The position numbers and the translations under genes were made by a program. Below are positions 2,699 through 62,811 of a stretch of DNA of 64,000 nucleotides, in pieces; position 1 is the stretch's first letter; every line of letters starts with the position of its first letter. The DNA is from Escherichia phage vB_EcoM_R5505. The notes under the pieces are model-generated. The model ran no database searches, had not been told where the DNA came from, and saw only the letters and a list, made by a program, of their open reading frames with translations. The DNA lies in the sequence record MK373786.1; one strand, given 5' to 3'.

Positions 2699-3292
2699 TT
2701 ATTTCAGAGAATTAATGTATTCCTGAACATCGGCAGAGGTAGTTTCAACCCCAGAAATATTACCATTAAAGGTTTCAACTCGAGCAAGAGTATCTTCAAT
2801 ATCAACCTTAGTCAGTGCTGCAATTTCAACTACATCATCGGCAGTACTAATTCCGAGGGCATTCGCGGCGCGAGTTTCACGGATATATTCCAATTTAACT
2901 GCAAGTTCTTGGCGAGCATCATCTAACTCAACTACTTTCTTGGCGATTTCAATTCGCATTTCAGCATAACCATCAGCTTTAGTAGTCAACTGCTCAGCTG
3001 TTCGACGATATAGTAAACCAAGTTTAGCATGCATTGTTACATCTTGACCTTCCGAAAGAAGCTTGCGAATTTCACGCTCTTTTGATTCGGCCTGCTTATT
3101 CTTTTCGACAATAAGTTCACGAATACGCTTTTCTTCATTAATAGATTTAACAGAAGCAGTTTTTAGATCTTTAATCTTATCAAGTAGTTTTGCTGCTGCA
3201 GCAGTATACTGTTCTTCAACAGATAGATTTTTAGCCATAGCAGAACCAAGTTTAGTGCGAATAAACTCAACAATTTTCTTCAGTGTGTTCAT
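2699..3292 (-). CDS. e.6: coiled-coil protein, T4 e.6 position
   Basis: 197-aa ORF, ATG start; charged, heptad-rich sequence predicting long coiled coil; no catalytic motif recognised. Confidence 0.65.
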
Positions 3293-3348
3293 AGTATTTC
3301 CTTAGGTTGGTATAATTAGATAATATCACGTTTTAATAGATTGTAAAC

Positions 3349-3684
3349 TTATTCTTCGTCTAGCTCGTCGATAAAGACGTTGATGGCCTCGATAACGGCA
3401 TCATTGATAGCTAATAAAATAAAATCATCGTCAGTACCTTTAGAAGATTCTAAAGCATTGATATATGCTTGGTTGGCGAGTTCCCAAGCCTTTTTAAAAT
3501 AAGGAGCTTCATCATCAGGACAAATATCCCGCACGCCTTCAAAGATACGTTTGGCATAATCTAACACCCATTGTACAGGCATGTTTTGAGAACGTTCGTT
3601 AAACTCTTTAAAGTCCTTAGATTCAAAAAGCTCTTCAGGATAATTATTTCTATTACAAAAAGCTTTACTAAAGTTACGTTTCAT
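3349..3684 (-). CDS. e.7: acidic hypothetical protein, T4 e.7 position
   Basis: 111-aa ORF, ATG start; synteny. Confidence 0.65.
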   Translation of the reverse strand: MKRNFSKAFCNRNNYPEELFESKDFKEFNERSQNMPVQWVLDYAKRIFEGVRDICPDDEAPYFKKAWELANQAYINALESSKGTDDDFILLAINDAVIEAINVFIDELDEE

Positions 3685-3740
3685 AATGTTTTCCTCATTT
3701 GTATAGGCTCATAATATCTCAATCATGAGCCTATGTAAAC

Positions 3741-4004
3741 TTATTTCATATTATTGAAATATTCTTCTGCGATTTCGTCGTTATCATGGTAAACTTTAGA
3801 AGACAGTTTAACATAACTTTCAGCAGTGAACATGTTAATCACAACCTTTACAGTATACCACTGACCGTCTTCATTGCCCATTACCGCATAAGTTTCAAAC
3901 ATCGGATGATCAGGACCGATAACTTTAATATCATTCACTGTACGACCGAAATCTTCTGAAACACATTTCATAAAGAAGTTGAACAGTTCGCCGTAATTAT
4001 CCAT
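3741..4004 (-). CDS. e.8: hypothetical protein, T4 e.8 position
   Basis: ORF track start 4016 is TTG; ATG at 4004 is preceded by strong SD (GGAGAACGAAATG); 87 aa from that start. Confidence 0.6.
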   Translation of the reverse strand: MDNYGELFNFFMKCVSEDFGRTVNDIKVIGPDHPMFETYAVMGNEDGQWYTVKVVINMFTAESYVKLSSKVYHDNDEIAEEYFNNMK

Positions 4005-4044
4005 TTCGTTCTCCAAGTTGTTTTCTGTATCAGTAGTTGATAGT

Positions 4045-4092
4045 TGTATAGTACCATGGAAGAAAAGGGATGTAAACAGTTTTGTGAAAAAA
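4045..4092 (-). promoter_or_regulatory. sigma70-type early promoter for the e.8-to-e transcription unit
   Basis: Minus strand reads TTCACAAAACTGTTTACA-N18-TACTAT; same cassette as the promoters at 8001-8040, 8301-8354, 8669-8721. Confidence 0.5.
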
Positions 4093-4210
4093 TTTTTAAA
4101 AAGTTTTAGGGAATTCTAGGGTCAGGAGGGGCAATTAAAAGATAGGATAATATATTATAAAGGGTAGAAACTAAATGATGCCTAGAGAGGCCCAGAAAGG
4201 CCTAGATACC

Positions 4211-4238
4211 AAAAAGTCCCAACCTTTCGGTTGGGGCT
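4211..4238 (-). terminator. rho-independent terminator after the 157-aa gene
   Basis: Minus-strand hairpin GCCCCAACC-GAAA-GGTTGGGAC followed by UUUUU; sits just 3' of the stop at 4246. Confidence 0.6.
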
Positions 4239-4245
4239 AAGAATG

Positions 4246-4719
4246 TTATTTGATTTGTTTAGCAGACCAAATGCGGTCTTTAATAATTTTTTGGATGTCT
4301 TCAACATACTCAAGAGAGTGAGCATGTGGGTTATCTTTGAAACTATAAGCACGAGCTAACTTTTGACCTTCAGTTTTGATTACTAAAAGCTCTTTAAGGA
4401 TAGCTTCATATTTGGAGATAATTCCTTTAACAATATTTTTTTCTTGTGTAGCTTTAGGATCTGCTTTAGGAGCAGGTTTACCTGAAGCCTTTGCAAAAGC
4501 AGCGCCAGTAGCAACTAAACTTTTCCAGGCCATACTAACTGCATTCCCTGTAAATCCTTCGGCTTTCATATCACGAGCAAATTGGAATCGTGATTCATCG
4601 GAAGCATCTTTATAGGAATATTTACCCGCGGCAATGGCTGCTTTTGCGACAGCTTGAATTTCGGTGCTAGATGCTTCATTTAACACCGCTTCATTTAAAA
4701 ATTGAGCATATGATTTCAT
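4246..4719 (-). CDS. Ala/Lys-rich protein with internal-protein-like N-terminal capsid-targeting motif
   Basis: 157-aa ORF, ATG start; N-terminus MKSYAQFLNEAVLNEA resembles the T4 internal-protein targeting sequence MKTYQEFIAEA and carries two L-x-E sites (prohead protease motif). Confidence 0.7.
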   Translation of the reverse strand: MKSYAQFLNEAVLNEASSTEIQAVAKAAIAAGKYSYKDASDESRFQFARDMKAEGFTGNAVSMAWKSLVATGAAFAKASGKPAPKADPKATQEKNIVKGIISKYEAILKELLVIKTEGQKLARAYSFKDNPHAHSLEYVEDIQKIIKDRIWSAKQIK

Positions 4720-4765
4720 CTTATTTCCTGTTTTAATTCGTGGTTTTAATATACTTATTTATACC

Positions 4766-4792
4766 AAAAAGCCCCAACCTTTCGGTCGGGGC
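4766..4792 (-). terminator. rho-independent terminator at the 3' end of the tRNA/stable-RNA transcription unit
   Basis: Minus-strand hairpin GCCCCGACC-GAAA-GGTTGGGGC followed by UUUUU; near-identical to the terminator at 4211-4238. Confidence 0.6.
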
Positions 4793-4844
4793 TAAGCCTT
4801 GCGGCAACCTTGTCGGGGTTCCACCTGCTAAGGCAAGTGTTTGT

Positions 4845-5002
4845 ACGAAACGCCGGGATTCGAACCCGGTTATTAAGCAGTTGACGCTACTCAATATTTT
4901 TAAAAGGCCATATCTCGACCATATCCGAACGTTCCGTCAAAAACGCTACTCGGCTTACGGCAAAGATATTTCCTCGAATCGATAATTCGGTGCGCCGTTT
5001 CT
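4845..5002 (-). ncRNA. candidate small stable RNA with tRNA-like 3' module (possibly T4 species-RNA analogue)
   Basis: Minus strand has perfect T-arm CCGGG-TTCGAAT-CCCGG followed by 7-nt acceptor-like strand that pairs with GAAACG ~150 nt upstream; no ORF; several strong hairpins at 5004-5104. Confidence 0.3.
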
Positions 5003-5104
5003 GCTGTGATATAAGAGGGCATTAACAAAACATAAAGATTTATTAATGCCAGTCCTTAAACAGGGAACATCAGTCCGACGACTTACCGGTAGCGACCCGG
5101 TTTC

Positions 5105-5455
5105 TTAATATTCTTTTAAAGCATCAATTTGTTCACGGCGTAAACGCCATAAATCAATTGCTTCATAAGCAGATTCAGCATTTCGAATTAGCCGACATTT
5201 ATGTAAAGACTTATGATTTTGATATTGTGTAGATAACGGAATTTTATCTAAAAGGTCTTTACGTTCAAAATATTCGTAACCATCTAAACCAAATGAACGA
5301 TTTTTGAGAAATTGCCAATGACCATATTCGTTTTCGACATAAACATAATCTGCATGCTGATAAAGCAAATTAATTACACGTTCAGAAATAACAGTATCAT
5401 TATGATTAAAATAGAATGTTAAATCATGAACTACTAAATAAACATTACATTTCAT
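5105..5455 (-). CDS. hypothetical protein encoded between tRNA-Arg and the stable-RNA region
   Basis: 116-aa ORF, ATG start with SD (TGAGGAAAATG); no recognisable motif; not GIY-YIG or HNH. Confidence 0.6.
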   Translation of the reverse strand: MKCNVYLVVHDLTFYFNHNDTVISERVINLLYQHADYVYVENEYGHWQFLKNRSFGLDGYEYFERKDLLDKIPLSTQYQNHKSLHKCRLIRNAESAYEAIDLWRLRREQIDALKEY

Positions 5456-5473
5456 ATTTTCCTCACTTATAAT

Positions 5474-5549
5474 TGGTCGAGGCAGTAGGGATCGAACCTA
5501 CGACCTAGGACTTAGAAGGTCCTTGCTCTTCCTTCTGAGCTATGCCCCG
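5474..5549 (-). tRNA. tRNA-Arg (anticodon UCU)
   Basis: Manual cloverleaf: acceptor CGGGGCA/TGCCTCG, D-stem GCTC/GAGC, anticodon stem AGGAC/GTCCT with loop CTTCTAA, T-arm GTAGG-TTCGATC-CCTAC, encoded CCA. Confidence 0.85.
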
Positions 5550-5553
5550 TAAT

Positions 5554-5629
5554 TGGGGTGACCGATGGGAGTCGAACCCATGACTACGAGAATCACAATC
5601 TCGAGTTCTACCAACTGAACTACGGCCAC
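5554..5629 (-). tRNA. tRNA-His (anticodon GUG)
   Basis: Cloverleaf: acceptor GTGGCCG/CGGTCAC, D-stem GTTC/GAAC, anticodon stem CGAGA/TCTCG loop TTGTGAT, T-arm ATGGG-TTCGACT-CCCAT, discriminator C, CCA encoded; no encoded G-1. Confidence 0.75.
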
Positions 5630-5743
5630 ATTAATACCTACTCCAACAATCAAGATGTCTTCACACGAAATTAAGAGAAGAGTGATCAGTTCAACCCCTA
5701 TAATCGCGTCAAGTAGATATTAATGTGACAGTTGTCACAAATT

Positions 5744-5818
5744 TGGCGGACGTGATAGGATTCGAACCTATAACCAATCGCTTAACAGGCGATCGCTCTG
5801 CCATTGAGCTACACATCC
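5744..5818 (-). tRNA. tRNA-Asn (anticodon GUU)
   Basis: Cloverleaf: acceptor GGATGTG/CACGTCC, D-stem GCTC/GAGC, anticodon stem ATCGC/GCGAT loop CTGTTAA, T-arm ATAGG-TTCGAAT-CCTAT, CCA encoded. Confidence 0.75.
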
Positions 5819-5822
5819 AAAT

Positions 5823-5909
5823 TGGTGGGGAGTGGTGGAGTCGAACCACCCGAGTCGCAATGACAATGAATTTACAGTCCACACCGCTACCTCTACGGGA
5901 TAACTCCCC
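5823..5909 (-). tRNA. tRNA-Tyr (anticodon GUA), long variable arm
   Basis: Perfect acceptor GGGGAGT/ACTCCCC, T-arm GGTGG-TTCGACT-CCACC, anticodon loop CTGTAAA, ~15-nt variable arm; D-arm pairing imperfect. Confidence 0.6.
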
Positions 5910-5918
5910 AAATTAATT

Positions 5919-5993
5919 TGGTGGCCCTGGGTGGAATTGAACCACCATCTGGCGATTATGAGTCGCTTGCTTGAACCTTCCAGCTACAGGGCC
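5919..5993 (-). tRNA. tRNA with CAU anticodon (Ile2 lysidine type as in T4, or Met)
   Basis: Acceptor GGCCCTG/CAGGGCC, D-stem GCTG/AAGC, anticodon loop CTCATAA, T-arm GGTGG-TTCAATT-CCACC, CCA encoded. Confidence 0.7.
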
Positions 5994-5994
5994 T

Positions 5995-6070
5995 TGGTGC
6001 TGATTGACGGAATCGAACCGCCGACCTTCTCATTACAAGTGAGTTGCTCTACCTACTGAGCTAAATCAGC
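5995..6070 (-). tRNA. tRNA-Thr (anticodon UGU)
   Basis: Acceptor GCTGATT/AATCAGC, D-stem GCTC/GAGC, anticodon loop CTTGTAA, T-arm GGCGG-TTCGATT-CCGTC, CCA encoded. Confidence 0.85.
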
Positions 6071-6075
6071 AAAAC

Positions 6076-6165
6076 TGGCGGAGGCGATAGGATTTGAACC
6101 TATGAGTCGCCGGAGCGACTGCCGGTTTTCAAGACCGGTGCATTAAACCACTCTGCCACGCCTCC
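6076..6165 (-). tRNA. tRNA-Ser (anticodon UGA), long variable arm
   Basis: Acceptor GGAGGCG/CGCCTCC, anticodon stem ACCGG/CCGGT loop CTTGAAA, long variable stem-loop, T-arm ATAGG-TTCAAAT-CCTAT, CCA encoded. Confidence 0.85.
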
Positions 6166-6167
6166 AG

Positions 6168-6241
6168 TCTCCATACAAGGATTTGAACCTTGGACCTCCT
6201 GATCCCAAATCAGGCGCTCTACCAAACTGAGCTACACGGAG
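6168..6241 (-). tRNA. tRNA-Pro (anticodon UGG), CCA not encoded; 2-nt spacer to tRNA-Ser
   Basis: Acceptor CTCCGTG/TATGGAG, D-stem GCTC/GAGC, anticodon stem CCTGA/TCAGG loop TTTGGGA, T-arm CAAGG-TTCAAAT-CCTTG; Pro-Ser dimeric arrangement as in T4. Confidence 0.85.
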
Positions 6242-6251
6242 TAAATTAAAT

Positions 6252-6325
<74 letters not shown>

Positions 6326-6330
6326 AAATT

Positions 6331-6417
6331 TGGTGCGAGAAGTGGGACTCGAACCCACAAGGAAATCATTCCGCAGCATTTTAAGTGCTGTGCCTTTACC
6401 AATTTGACCATTCTCGC
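6331..6417 (-). tRNA. tRNA-Leu (anticodon UAA), long variable arm
   Basis: Acceptor GCGAGAA/TTCTCGC, anticodon stem CAGCA/TGCTG loop CTTAAAA, long variable arm, T-arm GTGGG-TTCGAGT-CCCAC, CCA encoded. Confidence 0.85.
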
Positions 6418-6418
6418 G

Positions 6419-6490
6419 CTGGGAATAAAGGACTCGAACCTTTGCATCTAGCAGTCAAAGTGCTATGCCTTACCAACTTGGCTAATTCCC
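6419..6490 (-). tRNA. tRNA-Gln (anticodon UUG), CCA not encoded; 1-nt spacer to tRNA-Leu
   Basis: Acceptor TGGGAAT/ATTCCCA, D-stem GCC/GGC, anticodon stem TAGCA/TGCTA loop CTTTGAC, T-arm AAAGG-TTCGAGT-CCTTT; Gln-Leu dimeric arrangement as in T4. Confidence 0.85.
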
Positions 6491-6577
6491 AATTATTAAC
6501 AAAGGCTCTCAAACAAGAACCCTTGATGATAGAGGGTATTAATCAGTGCGGTATGAGTTAATAATAACAAATAATTC

Positions 6578-7093
6578 TTAAAGCAAATTAAACATTTTAA
6601 CGGTCGGCAAAACAATTTCTTCTTCTATATAAGAGTATTTAACACTCTCAACTACACGCAAAAAATCATAATCATAATACTCAGAAGCATTACCTAAAAT
6701 ATTAATAAGTCCTTCAAGCACTTTATTACCATTCACAAAGAATAAGTCAAATACGCGTTCTTCGTCTTCTTCGGATTTATTACCAAGGTCAACTTCTATA
6801 TCAAAGACCTTTTTAATGAATTCTGGATAAAGTTGTTCTGAGAACAGTCCTTCAACCAAGTATTCATAAATAAAAAGCGATTGCTCGCTGAACAAGCCAT
6901 TACCACAATAACGTTCAGCTTTAGTACTAGAATGTCTACTTTTAAACTTCTTTAAAAGATATTGAAATTGTAAGATTTCATGCTCTTCTACGCCAAACAG
7001 TGTTTTAGTTTTATAGTTGTCACCATCATTTTCCCAGGTAGTGACATCAATTACGTAACCCTGTGGAATTGTAGTACCTAAACAAATATTCAT
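6578..7093 (-). CDS. hypothetical protein, last gene of a four-gene early operon in the tRNA-ipI variable region
   Basis: 171-aa ORF, ATG start, 4-nt overlap with upstream gene; acidic; no motif recognised. Confidence 0.65.
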   Translation of the reverse strand: MNICLGTTIPQGYVIDVTTWENDGDNYKTKTLFGVEEHEILQFQYLLKKFKSRHSSTKAERYCGNGLFSEQSLFIYEYLVEGLFSEQLYPEFIKKVFDIEVDLGNKSEEDEERVFDLFFVNGNKVLEGLINILGNASEYYDYDFLRVVESVKYSYIEEEIVLPTVKMFNLL

Positions 7094-7383
7094 TTGCTCA
7101 CCATATTAATGTAAGTATATTCAATACATTCAAGACCCAAAGGATTCTTGAAAATATCATATTCAAGAGGACCTTTTTCCGTTTCAATAAAGAAATCAAA
7201 ATTTACTGTATTAAATTTACGGTCTTCCTTCACTAATTTAACCTGAGAAGATGAACGGTCAATGTAAACCTTTTCAACTTCAAAACATGTTAAAATGCCA
7301 TAATCATCAATCAAGGCTTTAGCTGCTTCTTGATCATATTTATATCCATTTTCAATGGATGATACTTTAGCATAAAGAATCAT
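7090..7383 (-). CDS. hypothetical protein (variable-region operon)
   Basis: 97-aa ORF, ATG start, 3-nt gap to upstream gene. Confidence 0.6.
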   Translation of the reverse strand: MILYAKVSSIENGYKYDQEAAKALIDDYGILTCFEVEKVYIDRSSSQVKLVKEDRKFNTVNFDFFIETEKGPLEYDIFKNPLGLECIEYTYINMVSK

Positions 7384-7385
7384 TA

Positions 7386-7796
7386 TCAGCCTCTATCAAC
7401 GATAGCATGAGTATGGGCATTTACGATTTGCCACCAGTCGAAACGATTGGAACCATAATCTGGTTTATTTTCATTTTCTTTAATGATATCACGCAGTTTA
7501 TCTTCTGTTTCAGCATACGCAATTAAATCATCATATCCGCCACAAGGATAATAATTATCACCTGCGAATAAAAGAAAATTTACCTTAGATGGATTTACGT
7601 AATAATGGTCTTTAGGATATTTAGTTCCTCTCCAATCAGTTACTTCAACATAACGGTAAGAAAATCCATTTTTACTTTCAATCCAACTCCACGCTTCAAA
7701 AGGAGTATTAAAAACTTTATCAGGTATTAAATTACCTTCAAAATGAGAAGGATTTGCATAATCCCCGGCATAAACATAATATTCGTTAATACTCAT
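7386..7796 (-). CDS. hypothetical protein, Tyr/Trp-rich (variable-region operon)
   Basis: 136-aa ORF, ATG start immediately after upstream stop; no motif recognised. Confidence 0.65.
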   Translation of the reverse strand: MSINEYYVYAGDYANPSHFEGNLIPDKVFNTPFEAWSWIESKNGFSYRYVEVTDWRGTKYPKDHYYVNPSKVNFLLFAGDNYYPCGGYDDLIAYAETEDKLRDIIKENENKPDYGSNRFDWWQIVNAHTHAIVDRG

Positions 7797-7982
7797 TTAT
7801 TCACCTTTAGAAATTTTATCCATAACAATAGCAATTAAACCAATTAAAAATGCTACTACAAGTGAAAACACATTTTCTGCTGTAGTCAATAATCCACATA
7901 TAAATCCAACAAACATTGAAAAACTAAAAGCGGAAGCAGAAATTGCAATAGCAACATTTCGAATTAATTCACAACGTTTCAT
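7797..7982 (-). CDS. small hydrophobic membrane protein (two predicted TM helices), first gene of operon
   Basis: 61-aa ORF, ATG start with SD GGAG (rc of 7991-7994); sequence ...AIAISASAFSFSMFVGFICGLL...LVVAFLIGLIAIVM... Confidence 0.55.
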   Translation of the reverse strand: MKRCELIRNVAIAISASAFSFSMFVGFICGLLTTAENVFSLVVAFLIGLIAIVMDKISKGE

Positions 7983-8000
7983 TTTATTCTCCTCAGTAGT

Positions 8001-8040
8001 AGATAGGGTAATAGTATCACTACCCTATCTAAAAGTAAAC
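8001..8040 (-). promoter_or_regulatory. early promoter cassette with -10 embedded in a 10-bp inverted repeat
   Basis: Minus strand: GTTTAC-N18-TACTAT; inverted repeat AGATAGGGTA/TACCCTATCT (8001-8010, 8021-8030) brackets the -10; shares 22-mer GATAGGGTAATAGTATCACTAC with 8302-8323. Confidence 0.5.
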
Positions 8041-8274
8041 TTATTTTTTACGAAAAATTGATTTATATTTATCAGCCCATTTCTCGATGACTTTTTCTGG
8101 TCCATAGATAACAAAATAATCACCAAACTCTTCACCACCGAGTTGACCGAAATTATCTAATGCATCACGAAGAACTCCATGAGGCATTTCGCCCATTTTA
8201 TCTTTCTTACCAATGTAAATAAACTCAACTTTTACATCAGCAGCTTCAGCAATAAATTCTTGATACGTTTTCAT
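8041..8274 (-). CDS. internal-protein-like small protein with canonical capsid targeting sequence
   Basis: ORF track start 8292 is GTG; ATG at 8274 with SD GGAGAATAAAATG gives 77 aa beginning MKTYQEFIAEA (matches T4 IPIII/IPII targeting motif, I-x-E cleavage site). Confidence 0.75.
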   Translation of the reverse strand: MKTYQEFIAEAADVKVEFIYIGKKDKMGEMPHGVLRDALDNFGQLGGEEFGDYFVIYGPEKVIEKWADKYKSIFRKK

Positions 8275-8300
8275 TTTATTCTCCAATTTCACATTTGTTT

Positions 8301-8354
8301 TGATAGGGTAATAGTATCACTACTAAAACCCCGTGTAAACAACTTTGTGAAATT
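8301..8354 (-). promoter_or_regulatory. early promoter cassette upstream of the internal-protein-like gene
   Basis: Minus strand: AATTTCACAAAGTTGTTTAC-N18-TACTAT; 20-mer GTAAACAACTTTGTGAAATT repeated at 8702-8721. Confidence 0.5.
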
Positions 8355-8359
8355 GTTTA

Positions 8360-8647
8360 TTACAAAAGATTTTTAGCAATAATCTTGAGATGTGCTGCAG
8401 AAATGTGTTTAGCTTTAAACAACGCAGTTTCTTCGGCAGGAGAGATAACGATTGTAGCACCATCCTTTTTAGCAGACCACCCATCACCTAGGTAAACAGT
8501 ACCTTTGATTTCTTCGCCATCAACCAGACTAATCATTGGTTTACCTTCTCGTCCTTTATTTGCTTTAATAACTTCAGAAGTAAGAGTAGCTTCGGTAATG
8601 GTAGAAACCGGGGTAGTTGTAGAAGTAAATTCTTTAAATGTTTTCAT
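8360..8647 (-). CDS. ipI: internal protein I (IPI), injected anti-restriction protein
   Basis: 95-aa ORF MKTFKEFTSTTTPVSTITEATLTSEVIKANKGREGKPMISLVDGEEIKG... recognised as T4 IPI; adjacent to 57B as in T4. Confidence 0.9.
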   Translation of the reverse strand: MKTFKEFTSTTTPVSTITEATLTSEVIKANKGREGKPMISLVDGEEIKGTVYLGDGWSAKKDGATIVISPAEETALFKAKHISAAHLKIIAKNLL

Positions 8648-8668
8648 TTTATTTTCCTAATTAATTTT

Positions 8669-8719
8669 GATGAGATAATAGTATCACTACCTCATCAGTA
8701 TGTAAACAACTTTGTGAAA

Positions 8720-8721
<2 letters not shown>
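8669..8721 (-). promoter_or_regulatory. early promoter for ipI
   Basis: Minus strand: ATTTCACAAAGTTGTTTACA-N17-TACTAT ~25 nt upstream of ipI ATG; partial inverted repeat TGATGAG/CTCATCA around the -10. Confidence 0.5.
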
Positions 8722-9416
<695 letters not shown>

Positions 9417-56635: not shown

Positions 56636-56657
56636 TTTGTGTTCCTCATGTTATGTC

Positions 56658-56687
56658 AGTAAGACTACTATAACACAACACGAGGGA
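56658..56687 (-). promoter_or_regulatory. sigma70-type promoter for alt.-3
   Basis: Minus strand: GTTTACA-N17-TATAGT ending ~20 nt upstream of alt.-3 ATG. Confidence 0.4.
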
Positions 56688-56695
56688 CTTGTAAA

Positions 56696-58753
56696 CTACA
56701 TCTTGAACTTTTTAGACATTCCGTTGATGTTAACCAAAGAAGCCAAGATTTGAGAAACTTCGTTTTCCTCTTCTTTTGATTCTTCTACAAGGAATTGATT
56801 AAATCCAGCCATTGGACGAACTTCACCAGTTTCCATTAAATGGTCGCCATCATATACTGATTCTTCTAATTGTTCAGAAGGAGGAACGATTGTACCTTCG
56901 ATTAGATACTTGTTATAAGCAGTTTCTTTCATAAAGTACGTACTTACTTTATTAATCTTCAGTAAAATTCCACGCGGTAGAATAACTTCAGCTTCTGATG
57001 GAAATCCTGATAAATGACCTGGAACGATAACTTTGATTCGCTCAGCTCCTTTAATTACCATACCCACGCTAGTTTCAGCATCTTCAATGGCATATGTAGA
57101 ATGACTACCCATATGCATTAAATCTTCTGCATCAACGGAACCTTCTCCTTCGCCAGAAAATACTGCGCCGGAATCATCTAGAGCCATATAGTTTTTACCA
57201 TGCTCACCGAAGATATTTGGTTTAAGTGATGTCGATACGAAGTTCTTGAAATAGAACATTTTGTTTTCAATGTTATGACGCAAAGTTTTAAAGGTAACTT
57301 CTTGTCCACGGTAAAGTGTAGTTCCTGGAGGAAGAACTGATCCTTTGGCAAAGGCAGAATCCAACGTCTCGATGTGCTTAATAGCTCGTTCCATATATTC
57401 TTCACGGGTAGAATCTGGTTTACCCAAAAGGAACGAGTTCATTTCAACATATGAATCTGCACAATAATCTTCAATTACATCAGATTCAGCTTGGGTTAAT
57501 CCTTTTGGAGTTACTTCGGTGCTTGCGTATTCATATGCCTGGGCAGCAGATTCATTAATCAATTTATAAATGCCATTCATGACAAATTGAATAATAGCTG
57601 TCTTTTCATCTGGCGTAGCTTTAGAACCTTTAACTAAATCATTAATAATTTTCTTAATAACATCAAAGCTATTAGAAATATTAATGTCAGCAAGATCGCT
57701 TAAAATTTTATCAGTTTTATAATCAAAGAATTCTTTATTCTTTAAATATTCTTGAGAACCTTGATATGTTATATCGCTCTGCAACTTGATAGATGGATCA
57801 CGTAAACGTGCATGGGCTAATGCAATATGATTTCGGAAGTTTTCTAGTTCATAATCGTTAGATTTAAAACGAGAAGCACTTCTCATACCACCGATAGCTC
57901 CTTTGCTAAAGTTTGAACCAATCTGGATAACCCCGGAGTTCATCGGACCTTCTGCTTTATATACCGGAACTTTAGATTCAAACTCTTGATATTTCTTGGC
58001 AGCGAAGCTATCACCCTGAAGTGAAGCATCAACAGTAGAATATTGAGCTTGTGCTGCTAATCGACGACTAATTTTAGTTTTCTGAATAACAGCTTGATCA
58101 GTGCGCTTATCATTTTCTAAAGCAATAGAAGCAGCAACAGCGACAGCTTTAGGAACAGCATTACCTGTTTTAACGTCTACATAAACATCACCAACCTTTG
58201 ATTCAACTTTTGTGAATAACTCAGTTGAAATAGGAGGTACACCTGGAATGTCTTCTAAATTGGCATTTTTACGGTAAACCATAATATATGCATACTTTTT
58301 ATCATAGTCCCAGATTTCCTTTAAAAGAACATATCGACCTGCTCCTTTAGTACGTACTAAACGGTCAGCAATAACTTGCATTTGACGAGCTGCGCCATTT
58401 GTTTTACTCTTTAGTACACGGAATAAGCACGCGTCAATTTTGTACTGCTTCATTGTTTGAAGAGCAGTATCAAAAACAGCATTAATGACGCCAATTGGAT
58501 TTCCACCCAAGTTTCTAAGCTTAACCAGCGATAATTTCTCGTTGACACCTATCATTACGATATGCATCATTTTATCGCCTGGTTTAACGTTTTTATTTGT
58601 ATCACCACCAGAGGTGTATGTACAAAATCTAAATCCAGGAAGAACGCTTTCTTCACCGGCTTGAATAGCAAAAATTTGAGGTATTTTATGCTTAGGATTT
58701 AAGTTAACAACCGGCGCCGAAGCGCCGTCAAATAATTCTGTAATAAGTTCCAT
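56696..58753 (-). CDS. Alt-family ADP-ribosyltransferase paralog (occupies the T4 alt.-2/alt.-1 position)
   Basis: 685-aa ORF MELITELFDGASAPV...; R / STS / E-x-E motifs (LYRGQ, FVSTSL, SEAEVILPRG); N-terminal ~230 aa ~65% identical to downstream alt. Confidence 0.8.
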   Translation of the reverse strand: MELITELFDGASAPVVNLNPKHKIPQIFAIQAGEESVLPGFRFCTYTSGGDTNKNVKPGDKMMHIVMIGVNEKLSLVKLRNLGGNPIGVINAVFDTALQTMKQYKIDACLFRVLKSKTNGAARQMQVIADRLVRTKGAGRYVLLKEIWDYDKKYAYIMVYRKNANLEDIPGVPPISTELFTKVESKVGDVYVDVKTGNAVPKAVAVAASIALENDKRTDQAVIQKTKISRRLAAQAQYSTVDASLQGDSFAAKKYQEFESKVPVYKAEGPMNSGVIQIGSNFSKGAIGGMRSASRFKSNDYELENFRNHIALAHARLRDPSIKLQSDITYQGSQEYLKNKEFFDYKTDKILSDLADINISNSFDVIKKIINDLVKGSKATPDEKTAIIQFVMNGIYKLINESAAQAYEYASTEVTPKGLTQAESDVIEDYCADSYVEMNSFLLGKPDSTREEYMERAIKHIETLDSAFAKGSVLPPGTTLYRGQEVTFKTLRHNIENKMFYFKNFVSTSLKPNIFGEHGKNYMALDDSGAVFSGEGEGSVDAEDLMHMGSHSTYAIEDAETSVGMVIKGAERIKVIVPGHLSGFPSEAEVILPRGILLKINKVSTYFMKETAYNKYLIEGTIVPPSEQLEESVYDGDHLMETGEVRPMAGFNQFLVEESKEEENEVSQILASLVNINGMSKKFKM

Positions 58754-62545: not shown

Positions 62546-62811
62546 TGTTCATCCTTTAGAGTTTGGTTTACAGCTCTATTATAAATCAATTCATCATTAA
62601 GCTCAGTCAAAGACCTATGGTACGTGGTTCTAACTTTATTTCCTTGCATCCAGTGCTTGACGTAAATGAAACCTTGCTCTACACATTTTTTAAAAATTCG
62701 TTCGTCTTTTTGAGCTCGGAATTCTGGATTGCATCTAAAAAATTGATTTACGTGACCGTAATCACGTGTAGTATTACCTTCATTTTCATAAATAGTGTGA
62801 ACAACAAACAT
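62542..62811 (-). CDS. 30.1: hypothetical protein, T4 30.1 position
   Basis: 89-aa ORF, ATG start; synteny only. Confidence 0.6.
   Translation of the reverse strand: MFVVHTIYENEGNTTRDYGHVNQFFRCNPEFRAQKDERIFKKCVEQGFIYVKHWMQGNKVRTTYHRSLTELNDELIYNRAVNQTLKDEQ

What the first reader, a model, noticed from the sequence alone, without database searches (positions are those of the whole stretch)
8001..8721. Repeated promoter cassette with the -10 element buried in a hairpin
Four minus-strand intergenic sites (4045-4092, 8001-8040, 8301-8354, 8669-8721) share the architecture TTCACAAA-GTTGTTTAC-N17-19-TACTAT; a fifth at 56658-56687 is similar. Two copies share an exact 22-mer (GATAGGGTAATAGTATCACTAC) and two share an exact 20-mer (GTAAACAACTTTGTGAAATT). 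At 8001-8030 the -10 hexamer is the loop of a perfect 10-bp inverted repeat. Besides serving as promoters, such repeats provide homology for cassette shuffling between phages and could act as RNA processing or attenuation signals when read through from upstream.
Basis: seen in the sequence. Interest (0 to 1): 0.45.

Follow-up and report, generated by a model that had tools for sequence, protein, structure and literature searches.

The report
T4 early promoters with embedded hairpins
These repeats are the well-known strong early promoters of a T4-like phage, each overlapping a small hairpin, which separate the swappable "internal protein" anti-defence genes; the sequence observation is correct but the element has been described since 1985-2014.

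Summary
The window is a Tequatrovirus, 99.9% identical to phage KAW1E185 over 7700-9200. The finding lies in the 57B(Acb1) - ipI - second ip gene - trna.4 locus.

The sites are T4-type early promoters: AT-rich upstream tract, GTTTAC, 17-bp spacer, TGn, TACTAT, and an A 7 nt downstream. Two are orthologues of T4 PE2 and PE1. GenBank X03016 (the 1985 T4 tRNA-region record) already annotates those two inside "potential stem-loop / IpI terminator" features.

They match the published "PeSL" concept of promoter-early stem-loops (Arbiol 2010, Comeau 2014). Arbiol 2010 credits Repoila 1994 with first seeing such elements at the IP loci.

T4 lacks the second ip gene (300 bp). An IMG/VR relative lacks ipI (367 bp).
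- Thirty related loci carry 1-5 genes from about 17 families between 57B and trna.4.
- Hairpins overlapping the -10 are strongly enriched: 15 of 33 non-redundant promoters and 12 of 18 in T4, against 8.8% of random windows.
- The hairpins lack a U-tract, so they are not canonical terminators. What they do in RNA remains inferred.

Verdict: real, correctly interpreted, already known.

The parts
8668..8721 (-). Promoter D, the orthologue of T4 PE2, which drives ipI. AT-rich/TTCACAAA upstream tract 8711-8721; GTTTAC 8707-8702; TGn + TACTAT 8683-8678; predicted +1 A at 8671. Hairpin 8697-8668: 13 bp including 3 G.U pairs, with TAC of the -10 in the loop and TAT in the 3' arm.
   Evidence: identical to T4 except one stem base, C->T, which turns G-C into G.U; X03016 PE2 plus stem-loop annotation
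8363..8647 (-). ipI, internal head protein I (IPI_T4 nuclease inhibitor). This is cassette 1.
   Evidence: PF11634, E = 7e-54; phrog_4363
8284..8355 (-). Promoter C, which drives the second ip gene. GTTTAC 8340-8335; TACTAT 8316-8311; predicted +1 A at 8304. Inner hairpin GGGGU..UAGUA/UACUA..ACCCU. Outer perfect 10-bp inverted repeat 8346-8355 / 8284-8293 encloses the whole promoter and abuts the SD GGAG (8284-8281). It shares the 20-mer (8335-8354) with promoter D and the 22-mer (8302-8323) with promoter B.
   Evidence: I23; z = -5.9
8044..8274 (-). Second internal virion protein gene (77 aa; N-terminus MKTYQEFIAEA resembles the capsid-targeting sequence). This is cassette 2. It is absent from T4.
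   Evidence: phrog_8111, E = 2e-50; annotated 'internal virion protein'; 300-bp indel against T4; family F4
8000..8040 (-). Promoter B, which drives trna.4. GTTTAC 8040-8035; TACTAT 8016-8011; predicted +1 A at 8004. Perfect 11-bp inverted repeat 8021-8031 / 8000-8010 with the -10 in the 10-nt loop. SD GAGGAG at 7994-7989.
   Evidence: I14; z = -4.2; DNA fold z = -4.3 on both strands
7800..7982 (-). trna.4 (61 aa, predicted membrane protein). This is the conserved right-hand anchor of the variable locus.
   Evidence: (family F1 in nearly all loci)
8723..9175 (-). 57B (Acb1, anti-CBASS). This is the conserved left-hand anchor of the variable locus.
   Evidence: (PF23474, E = 5e-60)
4048..4092 (-). 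Promoter A, upstream of the e.8 homologue (ATG 4004). TTCACAAA-ACTGTTTAC-N18-TACTAT. No hairpin.
   Evidence: (z = +1.0)
3703..3740 (-). GTTTAC-N18-TATTAT, with a 13-bp hairpin (3734-3703) whose loop and 3' arm contain the -10.
   Evidence: (z = -6.1)
3320..3348 (-). No hairpin.
   Evidence: (z = +0.3)
56641..56696 (-). Promoter E, between alt and a 96-aa gene (ATG 56635). GTTTAC 56696-56691; TATAGT 56672-56667. Hairpin 56688-56641, whose 3' arm includes the SD GAGG (56647-56644).
   Evidence: (z = -5.0)

Best explanation
These sites are T4-type early promoters read by unmodified E. coli sigma70 RNA polymerase immediately after infection. Each has an AT-rich upstream tract, GTTTAC(A/T) at -35, a 17-bp spacer, TGn, and TA(C/T)(A/T)AT at -10, with +1 at an A 7 nt downstream.

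They act as linkers between small, independently expressed cassettes in the hypervariable internal-protein (IP) locus: 57B/Acb1 - ipI - ip2 - trna.4. Each linker contains promoter, SD and, for ip genes, the first codons of the capsid-targeting sequence. Copies are alike enough (20-66 bp at 77-100% identity) for the phage's homologous recombination to delete, insert or swap the gene lying between two copies. That accounts for the natural variants seen here.

Superimposed on about half of such promoters is an inverted repeat between the spacer and the +1 region, which places the -10 in the loop or the 3' arm. The promoter's own transcript starts inside the 3' arm, so the hairpin can form only in RNA read through from the upstream cassette, or transiently in single-stranded DNA. 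The most likely role is as the 3'-end structure of the upstream message: a pause or attenuator and exonuclease barrier that insulates neighbouring cassettes transcriptionally. This is the T-even version of the published PeSL (promoter-early stem-loop).

Shown here: promoter architecture, orthology to T4 PE1 and PE2, non-random hairpins, indel junctions and locus variability.

Inferred: promoter activity in this phage, and attenuation or stabilisation by the hairpin RNA.
For: Identity and context. The region 7700-9200 is 99.9% identical to Tequatrovirus KAW1E185, and 98.3% identical to T4 over the parts they share.

Promoter.
- Six pattern matches against 1.2 expected, all on the minus strand.
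- Three of the four sites (A, C, D) score as TTTACA-17-TACTAT with TG; site B (TTTACT) falls below that scan's 9-of-12 threshold.
- D, and the C/B hybrid, align with T4 PE2 and PE1, which X03016 annotates as -35/-10 boxes inside 'pot. stem-loop / pot. IpI terminator' features.
- The consensus agrees with Hinton 2010 and with the T4 dRNA-seq early motif.

Recombination.
- T4 lacks exactly 300 bp, the ip2 cassette, and the breakpoint is anywhere within the shared 22-mer.
- IMG/VR locus L029 lacks 367 bp, the ipI cassette, and the breakpoint is within the shared AATTTCACAAAGTTGTTTACA.
- Thirty loci show 1-5 genes of about 17 families between 57B and trna.4.
- L019 carries a tandem slippage duplication of the -10 and 3' arm.

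Hairpins.
- RNA z-scores are -4.1 to -6.1 at B, C, D, e.7 and E.
- 15 of 33 non-redundant promoters have z < -2, and 12 of 33 have z < -3.
- 10 of 33 reach p <= 0.01 when the promoter consensus is held fixed and only the flanks are permuted.
- 12 of 18 promoters in T4 have z < -2, against 8.8% of random windows (p = 2e-9).
- Nineteen distinct trna.4-upstream promoters all fold with the -10 in the loop or 3' arm, using at least 6 unrelated stem sequences.

Literature. PeSLs combine promoter and stem-loop, 'most commonly between -35 and -10 or overlapping the -10'. Promoter and terminator activity and mini-circle formation were shown in RB49/phi1. The concept was extended to T4/PST. Arbiol 2010 states that the same kind of element was seen at the T-even IP loci by Repoila 1994.
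Against: - No transcript 5'-end data for these sites could be obtained. The TSS table of the T4 dRNA-seq preprint is not held, and the X03016 features are labelled 'putative'.
- The hairpins have no downstream U-tract, and the terminator scan does not pick them up. Classical intrinsic termination is therefore unlikely, and the attenuator role rests on analogy with the GC-rich RB49 stems.
- About half of the promoters, including A and e.6 in this window, have no hairpin. The hairpin is therefore dispensable for promoter function.
- A fixed-column covariation test on 12 trna.4 promoters was no better than shuffles (62.9% against 62.0% paired), and RNAalifold found no consensus, because the stems shift register.
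- The preference for sense-strand stability (13/15 and 10/12) is only marginal against a 63% background. RNA-level and DNA-level roles are therefore not cleanly separated.
Confidence: 0.82

Rival explanations
1. The hairpins are genuine intrinsic terminators of the upstream gene (Broida and Abelson's 'potential IpI terminator'). On this view each cassette is a fully closed transcription unit.
For: X03016 labels the PE1 stem-loop 'pot. IpI terminator'. In RB49, a PeSL stem-loop reduced lacZ expression as much as rrnB T1. The hairpins sit directly after stop codons.
Against: No U-tract follows any of B, C or D; the sequences there are CUACUACUGAGG, AUCAAAACAAAUG and AAAAUUAAUUAGG. The terminator scan lists other sites (4770-4793, 4218-4235) but none of these. 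The stems are AT-rich with G.U pairs, with whole-segment fold energies of -17.6 to -24.6 kcal/mol for the 66-76-nt segments folded. T-even IP-locus stems are described as 'weaker, more AT-rich' than RB49 PeSLs.
Confidence: 0.2
2. The hairpins are translational or RegB switches. In read-through RNA the promoter's spacer pairs with the downstream Shine-Dalgarno/GGAG sequence, blocking ribosomes and RegB cleavage. The promoter's own transcript lacks the 5' arm and is open.
For: 7 of 33 non-redundant promoters show SD pairing with pre-TSS sequence beyond 95% of controls. There are clear cases in T4 upstream of regB, denV, motB.2, motB and mrh.2, and in L021, L030, L027 and L031. Site E pairs its SD completely. 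RegB is inhibited by RNA secondary structure (Uzan & Miller 2010).
Against: At the three promoters of the finding the SD is largely free in read-through RNA: P(paired) is 0.13 at D, 0.28 at C and 0.57 at B. Averaged over all 33 promoters, SD occlusion equals the shuffled control (0.415 against 0.432). It is therefore a property of a subset, not the general reason for the hairpin.
Confidence: 0.15
3. The palindromes act at the DNA level. They could be cruciforms or hairpins in single-stranded DNA recognised by a structure-specific or sequence-specific protein that targets recombination. Alternatively they could be a cis-element for the still-unexplained shut-off of early promoters.
For: B and C fold about equally well as DNA on both strands (z = -4.3/-4.3 and -5.2/-4.8). 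Arbiol 2010 speculated about a stem-loop-binding recombination protein. The early-promoter shut-off mechanism is described as not understood.
Against: Stem sequences are unrelated between promoters, which rules out a single sequence-specific binder. D has three G.U pairs and folds poorly as antisense DNA (z = -1.3). Half of the early promoters lack any palindrome, yet early shut-off is described as a general decline in early transcription. The observed indel junctions lie in ordinary direct repeats, as expected for plain homologous recombination.
Confidence: 0.06
4. The inverted repeats are a chance by-product of the partly palindromic promoter consensus (TAGTGATACTA) and of AT-rich composition.
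For: The core TAGT-GAT-ACTA is itself self-complementary. 8.8% of random T4 windows reach z < -2.
Against: With -35 and the extended -10 held fixed and only the flanks permuted, 10 of 33 promoters reach p <= 0.01, where 0.3 are expected. Enrichment over random windows gives p = 2e-9 to 3e-8. Promoters B and C (with T4 PE1) pair different 5' arms, in different registers, with the same 3' arm ACCCTAT.
Confidence: 0.03

Closest known systems
T4 early promoters PE2 and PE1 of the tRNA region (GenBank X03016, Broida & Abelson 1985 record)
   Same: Orthologous positions: upstream of ipI, and between ipI and trna.4. The sequence is the same apart from one stem base at D. The same -35 and -10 boxes lie inside annotated 'potential stem-loop' features.
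   Different: The window has one more cassette (ip2) and therefore three promoters where T4 has two. T4 PE1 corresponds to the 5' part of promoter C fused to the 3' context of promoter B.
PeSL, promoter-early stem-loop regulatory cassettes (Arbiol et al. 2010, PMC2839356; Comeau et al. 2014, PMC4122927)
   Same: Both are composites of an AT-rich tract, a sigma70-type early promoter, a stem-loop (most often between -35 and -10 or overlapping the -10), an SD and a start codon. Both are repeated between small variable ORFs in hyperplastic regions. Both have indel junctions inside the element. The published T4/PST consensus TTTACW-N17-TAYWAT fits these sites.
   Different: RB49/phi1 stems are GC-rich (polyG/polyC) and were shown to terminate transcription. 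Here the stems are AT-rich, contain G.U pairs, have no U-tract and are untested. Arbiol 2010 calls the T-even IP-locus elements 'analogs, not homologs' of RB49 PeSLs. Mini-circles have not been shown for T-even phages.
IP-locus shuffling elements of T-even phages (Repoila et al. 1994, as described in Arbiol 2010 and Comeau 2014)
   Same: Arbiol 2010 describes them at the two highly variable IP loci of T-even coliphages, of which this locus (it holds ipI) is taken to be one. They are T4-early-promoter-based repeats with weak AT-rich stem-loops, associated with swapping of ip genes.
   Different: The original paper could not be read here, so a base-level comparison with its figures was not made.
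T4 genes whose ribosome-binding site is sequestered in long transcripts and freed in transcripts from a promoter inside the hairpin (e, soc, I-TevI; recalled from the T4 literature. A mobE RBS-sequestering hairpin paper is listed among the references)
   Same: The logic is the same for the subset of early promoters whose 3' arm contains the SD: site E in the window, and T4 regB, denV and motB.2.
   Different: In the known cases the internal promoter is late or middle, not early. The three promoters of the finding do not occlude their SD.
Integron gene cassettes with attC sites
   Same: Both are arrays of small, swappable, often defence-related genes separated by repeated imperfect palindromes. 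Excised circles have been reported for PeSLs.
   Different: There is no integrase and no site-specific recombination site. Each cassette carries its own promoter. Exchange is explained by homologous recombination.

Membership tests
T4-type early promoter | -35 GTTTAC(A/T), 17 +/- 1 bp spacer, TGn extended -10, and -10 TA(C/T)(A/T)AT | tested here: met
   A, C and D are TTTACA-17-(TG)-TACTAT; B is TTTACT-17-TACTAT. They match the dRNA-seq early motif TGTG(A/G)TA(C/T)(A/T)AT except for A in place of T at the first position.
T4-type early promoter | AT-rich UP-like tract upstream of -35 | tested here: met
   TAAAATAATTTCACAAAGTT at C and D; AAAAATTTTTTCACAAAACT at A; TTTTTCGTAAAAAATAA at B. Hinton 2010 describes early promoters as UP/-35/TGn/-10.
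T4-type early promoter | Orthology to a mapped or annotated T4 early promoter | tested here: met
   D corresponds to PE2, and C/B to PE1 of X03016. Those features are themselves labelled 'putative'.
T4-type early promoter | Primary transcript 5' end about 7 nt downstream of -10 within the first minutes of infection | not testable with these tools
   The predicted +1 A positions are 8671, 8304 and 8004. The TSS table of the T4 dRNA-seq study is not held.
PeSL (promoter-early stem-loop cassette) | A stable stem-loop within or overlapping the early promoter | tested here: met
   (z = -4.1 to -6.1 at B, C, D, e.7 and E). Not met at A and e.6.
PeSL (promoter-early stem-loop cassette) | Repeated between small variable ORFs in a hyperplastic region, ending in an SD and start codon | tested here: met
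   About 17 gene families occur in 1-5 slots across 30 loci.
PeSL (promoter-early stem-loop cassette) | Insertion/deletion/replacement junctions fall inside the elements | tested here: met
   A 300-bp indel is bounded by the 22-mer and a 367-bp indel by the 20/21-mer.
PeSL (promoter-early stem-loop cassette) | The stem-loop attenuates or terminates upstream transcription | not testable with these tools
   This was shown only for RB49 PeSL211/210. Here there is no U-tract.
PeSL (promoter-early stem-loop cassette) | Recombination between flanking elements yields mini-circles | not testable with these tools
   It needs inverse PCR on infected cells.
Rho-independent (intrinsic) terminator | GC-rich stem immediately followed by a U-tract | tested here: not met
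   One search lists no terminator-like site at 8000-8031, 8284-8355 or 8668-8697. The tails are A-rich or mixed.
Curated RNA family (Rfam) | A match to any Rfam covariance model | tested here: not met
   Only tRNAs, plus sub-threshold noise that lies within the tRNA cluster, are found in 3000-9300.

The most novel reading that the evidence does not exclude
The promoter-embedded hairpins may be RNA switches that tell read-through transcripts apart from self-initiated ones across T4-like early regions. In read-through RNA the promoter's spacer pairs with the +1 region and, in a subset, with the Shine-Dalgarno/GGAG sequence. That would hide the SD from ribosomes and from RegB, and would give the upstream message a protective 3' hairpin. 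The promoter's own transcript starts inside the 3' arm and is open. Each cassette's translation and decay would then be tied to its own promoter, which would be why cassettes can be shuffled without disturbing their neighbours. The PeSL papers propose attenuation.
Probability: 0.2. Interest if true: 0.4.

Novelty: already known. Interest (0 to 1): 0.15.

Why it matters
These linkers are how T4-like phages keep a swappable set of injected anti-defence proteins, such as IpI against GmrSD, next to Acb1 against CBASS. Each gene comes with its own strong early promoter, and the repeated promoter sequence lets genes be gained, lost or exchanged between co-infecting phages. This is useful for annotation, since it marks cassette boundaries and candidate anti-defence genes, and for phage engineering. 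The principle, however, has been in the literature since 1985-2014. The only open point is what the hairpin RNA actually does in T-even phages.

Tried and rejected
- RNAalifold on 12 trna.4-upstream promoters gave no consensus structure.
- A fixed-column pair count on the same alignment was no better than shuffles (62.9% against 62.0%). The stems shift register between variants, so column-wise covariation cannot be claimed. Support rests on per-sequence statistics and on the diversity of stems.
- Sense versus antisense folding was tried as a test of RNA-level selection. The hairpin sets favour sense (13/15 and 10/12), but random T4 windows already do so in 63% of cases. The result is only marginal, about p = 0.05 by my own estimate.
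- SD occlusion as the general purpose of the hairpin was rejected. The mean equals the control, and it does not hold at B, C or D.
- The intrinsic-terminator reading was rejected for lack of a U-tract.
- An Rfam search found nothing relevant.
- Direct TSS evidence was sought and not found. AF158101 carries no promoter features in this region, and the dRNA-seq TSS table is not held.
- Miller 2003 and Repoila 1994 are not held. Repoila 1994 is cited only through Arbiol 2010 and Comeau 2014.
- A literature search for ipI expression data gave nothing usable.
Full report
**What the window is.** Region 7700-9200 is 99.9% identical to Escherichia phage vB_EcoM_KAW1E185 (Tequatrovirus). It is 98.3% identical to T4 over the parts the two share. 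On the minus strand the genes run as follows:
- 57B (8723-9175; Pfam Acb1, anti-CBASS)
- ipI (8363-8647; Pfam IPI_T4)
- a second internal virion protein gene of 77 aa (8044-8274; phrog_8111)
- trna.4 (7800-7982)

The finding therefore lies in the T-even internal-protein (IP) locus next to the tRNA cluster.

**Checking the observation.**
- The 22-mer is at 8002-8023 and 8302-8323.
- The 20-mer is at 8335-8354 and 8702-8721.
- The inverted repeat at 8000-8010 / 8021-8031 is perfect over 11 bp. Its 10-nt loop GTGATACTAT holds the whole -10 hexamer.

GTTTAC-N16-19-TANNAT occurs six times in 64 kb, always on the minus strand and always upstream of an SD and ATG. Shuffles give 1.22 +/- 1.07, and none of 100 reaches six.

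- Site B lacks the TTCACAAA/GTTGTTTAC part.
- Site A has ACTGTTTAC and no hairpin.
- Two further promoters of the same kind were missed: 3711-3740 before e.7 and 3320-3348 before e.6.
- Hairpins also exist at D (13 bp with three G.U pairs) and at C. The C hairpin is nested, and its outer perfect 10-bp repeat 8284-8293 / 8346-8355 encloses the whole promoter.
- The fifth site is GTTTAC-N18-TATAGT between alt and a 96-aa gene. Its hairpin has a 3' arm that contains the SD.

These points rest. RNA folding z-scores against dinucleotide shuffles are -4.2 (B), -5.9 (C), -4.1 (D), -6.1 (e.7) and -5.0 (E). Sites A and e.6 score +1.0 and +0.3.

**What the sites are.** Aligning the window with the T4 tRNA-region record X03016 shows that promoter D is T4 PE2, with a single base change. 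That change turns a G-C stem pair into G.U. T4 PE1 equals the 5' half of promoter C joined to the 3' context of promoter B. X03016 annotates both PE2 and PE1 as putative -35/-10 boxes lying inside a 'pot. stem-loop structure', and in the second case a 'pot. IpI terminator'.

The architecture is the T4 early-promoter type. It has an AT-rich upstream tract, TTTACA, a 17-bp spacer, TGn and TACTAT. Hinton 2010 describes this as 'UP/-35/TGn/-10'. The -10 region matches the early motif TGTG(A/G)TA(C/T)(A/T)AT recovered by T4 dRNA-seq. An A lies 7 nt after each -10, at 8671, 8304 and 8004. That position is inside the 3' arm of each hairpin, so a transcript started at the promoter cannot form the hairpin. 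Only RNA read through from upstream can, or single-stranded DNA.

**Cassette shuffling.**
- T4 lacks 300 bp, the second ip gene. The alignment is ambiguous only within the shared 22-mer, which comprises the -10 and the 3' arm.
- IMG/VR locus L029 lacks 367 bp, the ipI gene. The ambiguity there lies within AATTTCACAAAGTTGTTTACA, the upstream tract plus -35.

I fetched 30 related loci through gp57B. Between the conserved 57B and trna.4 genes these loci carry one to five small genes, drawn from about 17 sequence families in many combinations, usually separated by promoter matches. One locus, L019, shows a tandem slippage duplication of the -10 and 3' arm. Homology between cassettes also extends through the SD and the first codons of the ip genes (8248-8289 and 8621-8662, 81% identical).

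**Are the hairpins more than chance?**
- Among 33 non-redundant promoters from the window and the related loci, 15 have z < -2 and 12 have z < -3.
- With the -35 and extended -10 held fixed and only the flanking bases permuted, 10 of 33 reach an empirical p <= 0.01, where about 0.3 are expected.
- In T4 itself, 12 of 18 intergenic matches have z < -2. Random 54-nt windows of the same regions do so in 8.8% of cases (p = 2e-9).
- Nineteen distinct versions of the trna.4-upstream promoter all fold with the -10 in the loop or 3' arm. They use at least six unrelated stem sequences.
- Promoters B and C (with T4 PE1) pair different 5' arms, in different registers, with the same 3' arm.

The complementarity is therefore maintained. 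It is also optional, because roughly half of the promoters lack it.

Formal column-wise covariation could not be shown. RNAalifold found no consensus. A fixed structure counted on the alignment was no better than shuffles, because the stems change register between variants.

**What the hairpin does.**
- None of B, C or D is followed by a U-tract, and the terminator scan does not list them, although it finds other terminators nearby. They are therefore not canonical intrinsic terminators.
- At the three promoters of the finding the downstream SD stays largely unpaired in read-through RNA (0.13, 0.28 and 0.57). Translational occlusion is therefore not their main role.
- In a subset elsewhere the 3' arm does contain the SD/GGAG. 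This is 7 of 33 promoters, and includes T4 regB, denV and motB.2 and site E in the window. That is notable because RegB is blocked by secondary structure.
- Sense RNA is more stable than antisense in 13 of 15 and 10 of 12 hairpin promoters. The background is already 63%, so this only weakly favours an RNA-level role.
- B and C fold equally well as DNA on both strands, whereas D does not.

The best-supported reading is the published one. The stem-loop is the 3' structure of the upstream cassette's message, acting as a pause, attenuator or exonuclease barrier that insulates the cassettes. That step remains inferred for T-even phages.

**Comparison with what is known.** Arbiol et al. 2010 defined PeSLs in RB49/phi1. 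[quoted passage not shown] They are repeated in hyperplastic regions. Promoter and terminator activity were shown in lacZ fusions, and recombination between copies produced mini-circles.

The same paper states that Repoila et al. [quoted passage not shown] It describes these as based on T4 early promoters with 'weaker, more AT-rich SLSs'. Comeau et al. 2014 extended PeSLs to T4/PST, with the consensus TTTACW-N17-TAYWAT. No Rfam family covers the sites.

The finding matches these descriptions in every feature that could be tested here. The untestable features are promoter activity, attenuation and mini-circle formation.

**Verdict.** It rediscovers T4 early promoters and the PeSL-like linkers of the IP locus. 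Novelty: already known. Interest is low (0.15). The one loose end worth an experiment is the function of the hairpin RNA, including SD/RegB-site occlusion at a subset of early promoters.

Noticed in passing
window 8723-9175 (-), with 8363-8647 and 8044-8274: gp57B matches Pfam Acb1 (anti-CBASS, E = 5e-60). It sits directly upstream of IpI (a nuclease inhibitor, against GmrSD from my own knowledge) and a second injected internal protein. Together they form a compact anti-defence island whose middle part is the shuffled cassette array.
   Followed up: partly
T4 AF158101 minus strand, -35 at 62796 (regB), 65412 (denV), 8217 (motB.2), 7214 (motB), 15287 (mrh.2); also L021, L030, L027 and L031; window 56641-56688: At a subset of early promoters the hairpin's 3' arm contains the downstream Shine-Dalgarno/GGAG. 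The SD, which is also the RegB site, would then be paired only in read-through RNA and free in the promoter's own transcript. 7 of 33 non-redundant promoters are significant against shuffled upstream sequence.
   Followed up: partly
L019 around 5174-5240: There is a tandem duplication of the -10 and 3' arm (GATACTATTACCTCATCAA twice) inside a promoter cassette. It looks like recombinational slippage within a linker.
   Followed up: no
window 4770-4793 and 4218-4235 (-): Two canonical terminator-like hairpins share the core ACCGAAAGGTTGGG and are followed by T-runs, downstream of the tRNA/e.8 region. Unlike the promoter hairpins, these do fit an intrinsic terminator.
   Followed up: no
window 5477-6491 (-): Ten tRNA genes, plus one weaker long-arm tRNA-like match, form an uninterrupted cluster. 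The closest genome, KAW1E185, has a homing endonuclease gene inside its cluster, and T4 has segB. The window is therefore mosaic relative to its best match.
   Followed up: no
window 8248-8289 and 8621-8662: An 81% direct repeat covers the SD and the first ~10 codons of both ip genes (MKTYQEF.. and MKTFKEF.., the capsid-targeting sequence). It extends the recombination-prone homology beyond the promoter.
   Followed up: partly
T4 early regions (L036, L037, L003, L038): Random 54-nt windows on the early-gene sense strand fold more stably than their reverse complements in 63% of cases (mean difference 1.2 kcal/mol). This compositional bias must be controlled for in any sense/antisense test in these phages.
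   Followed up: yes
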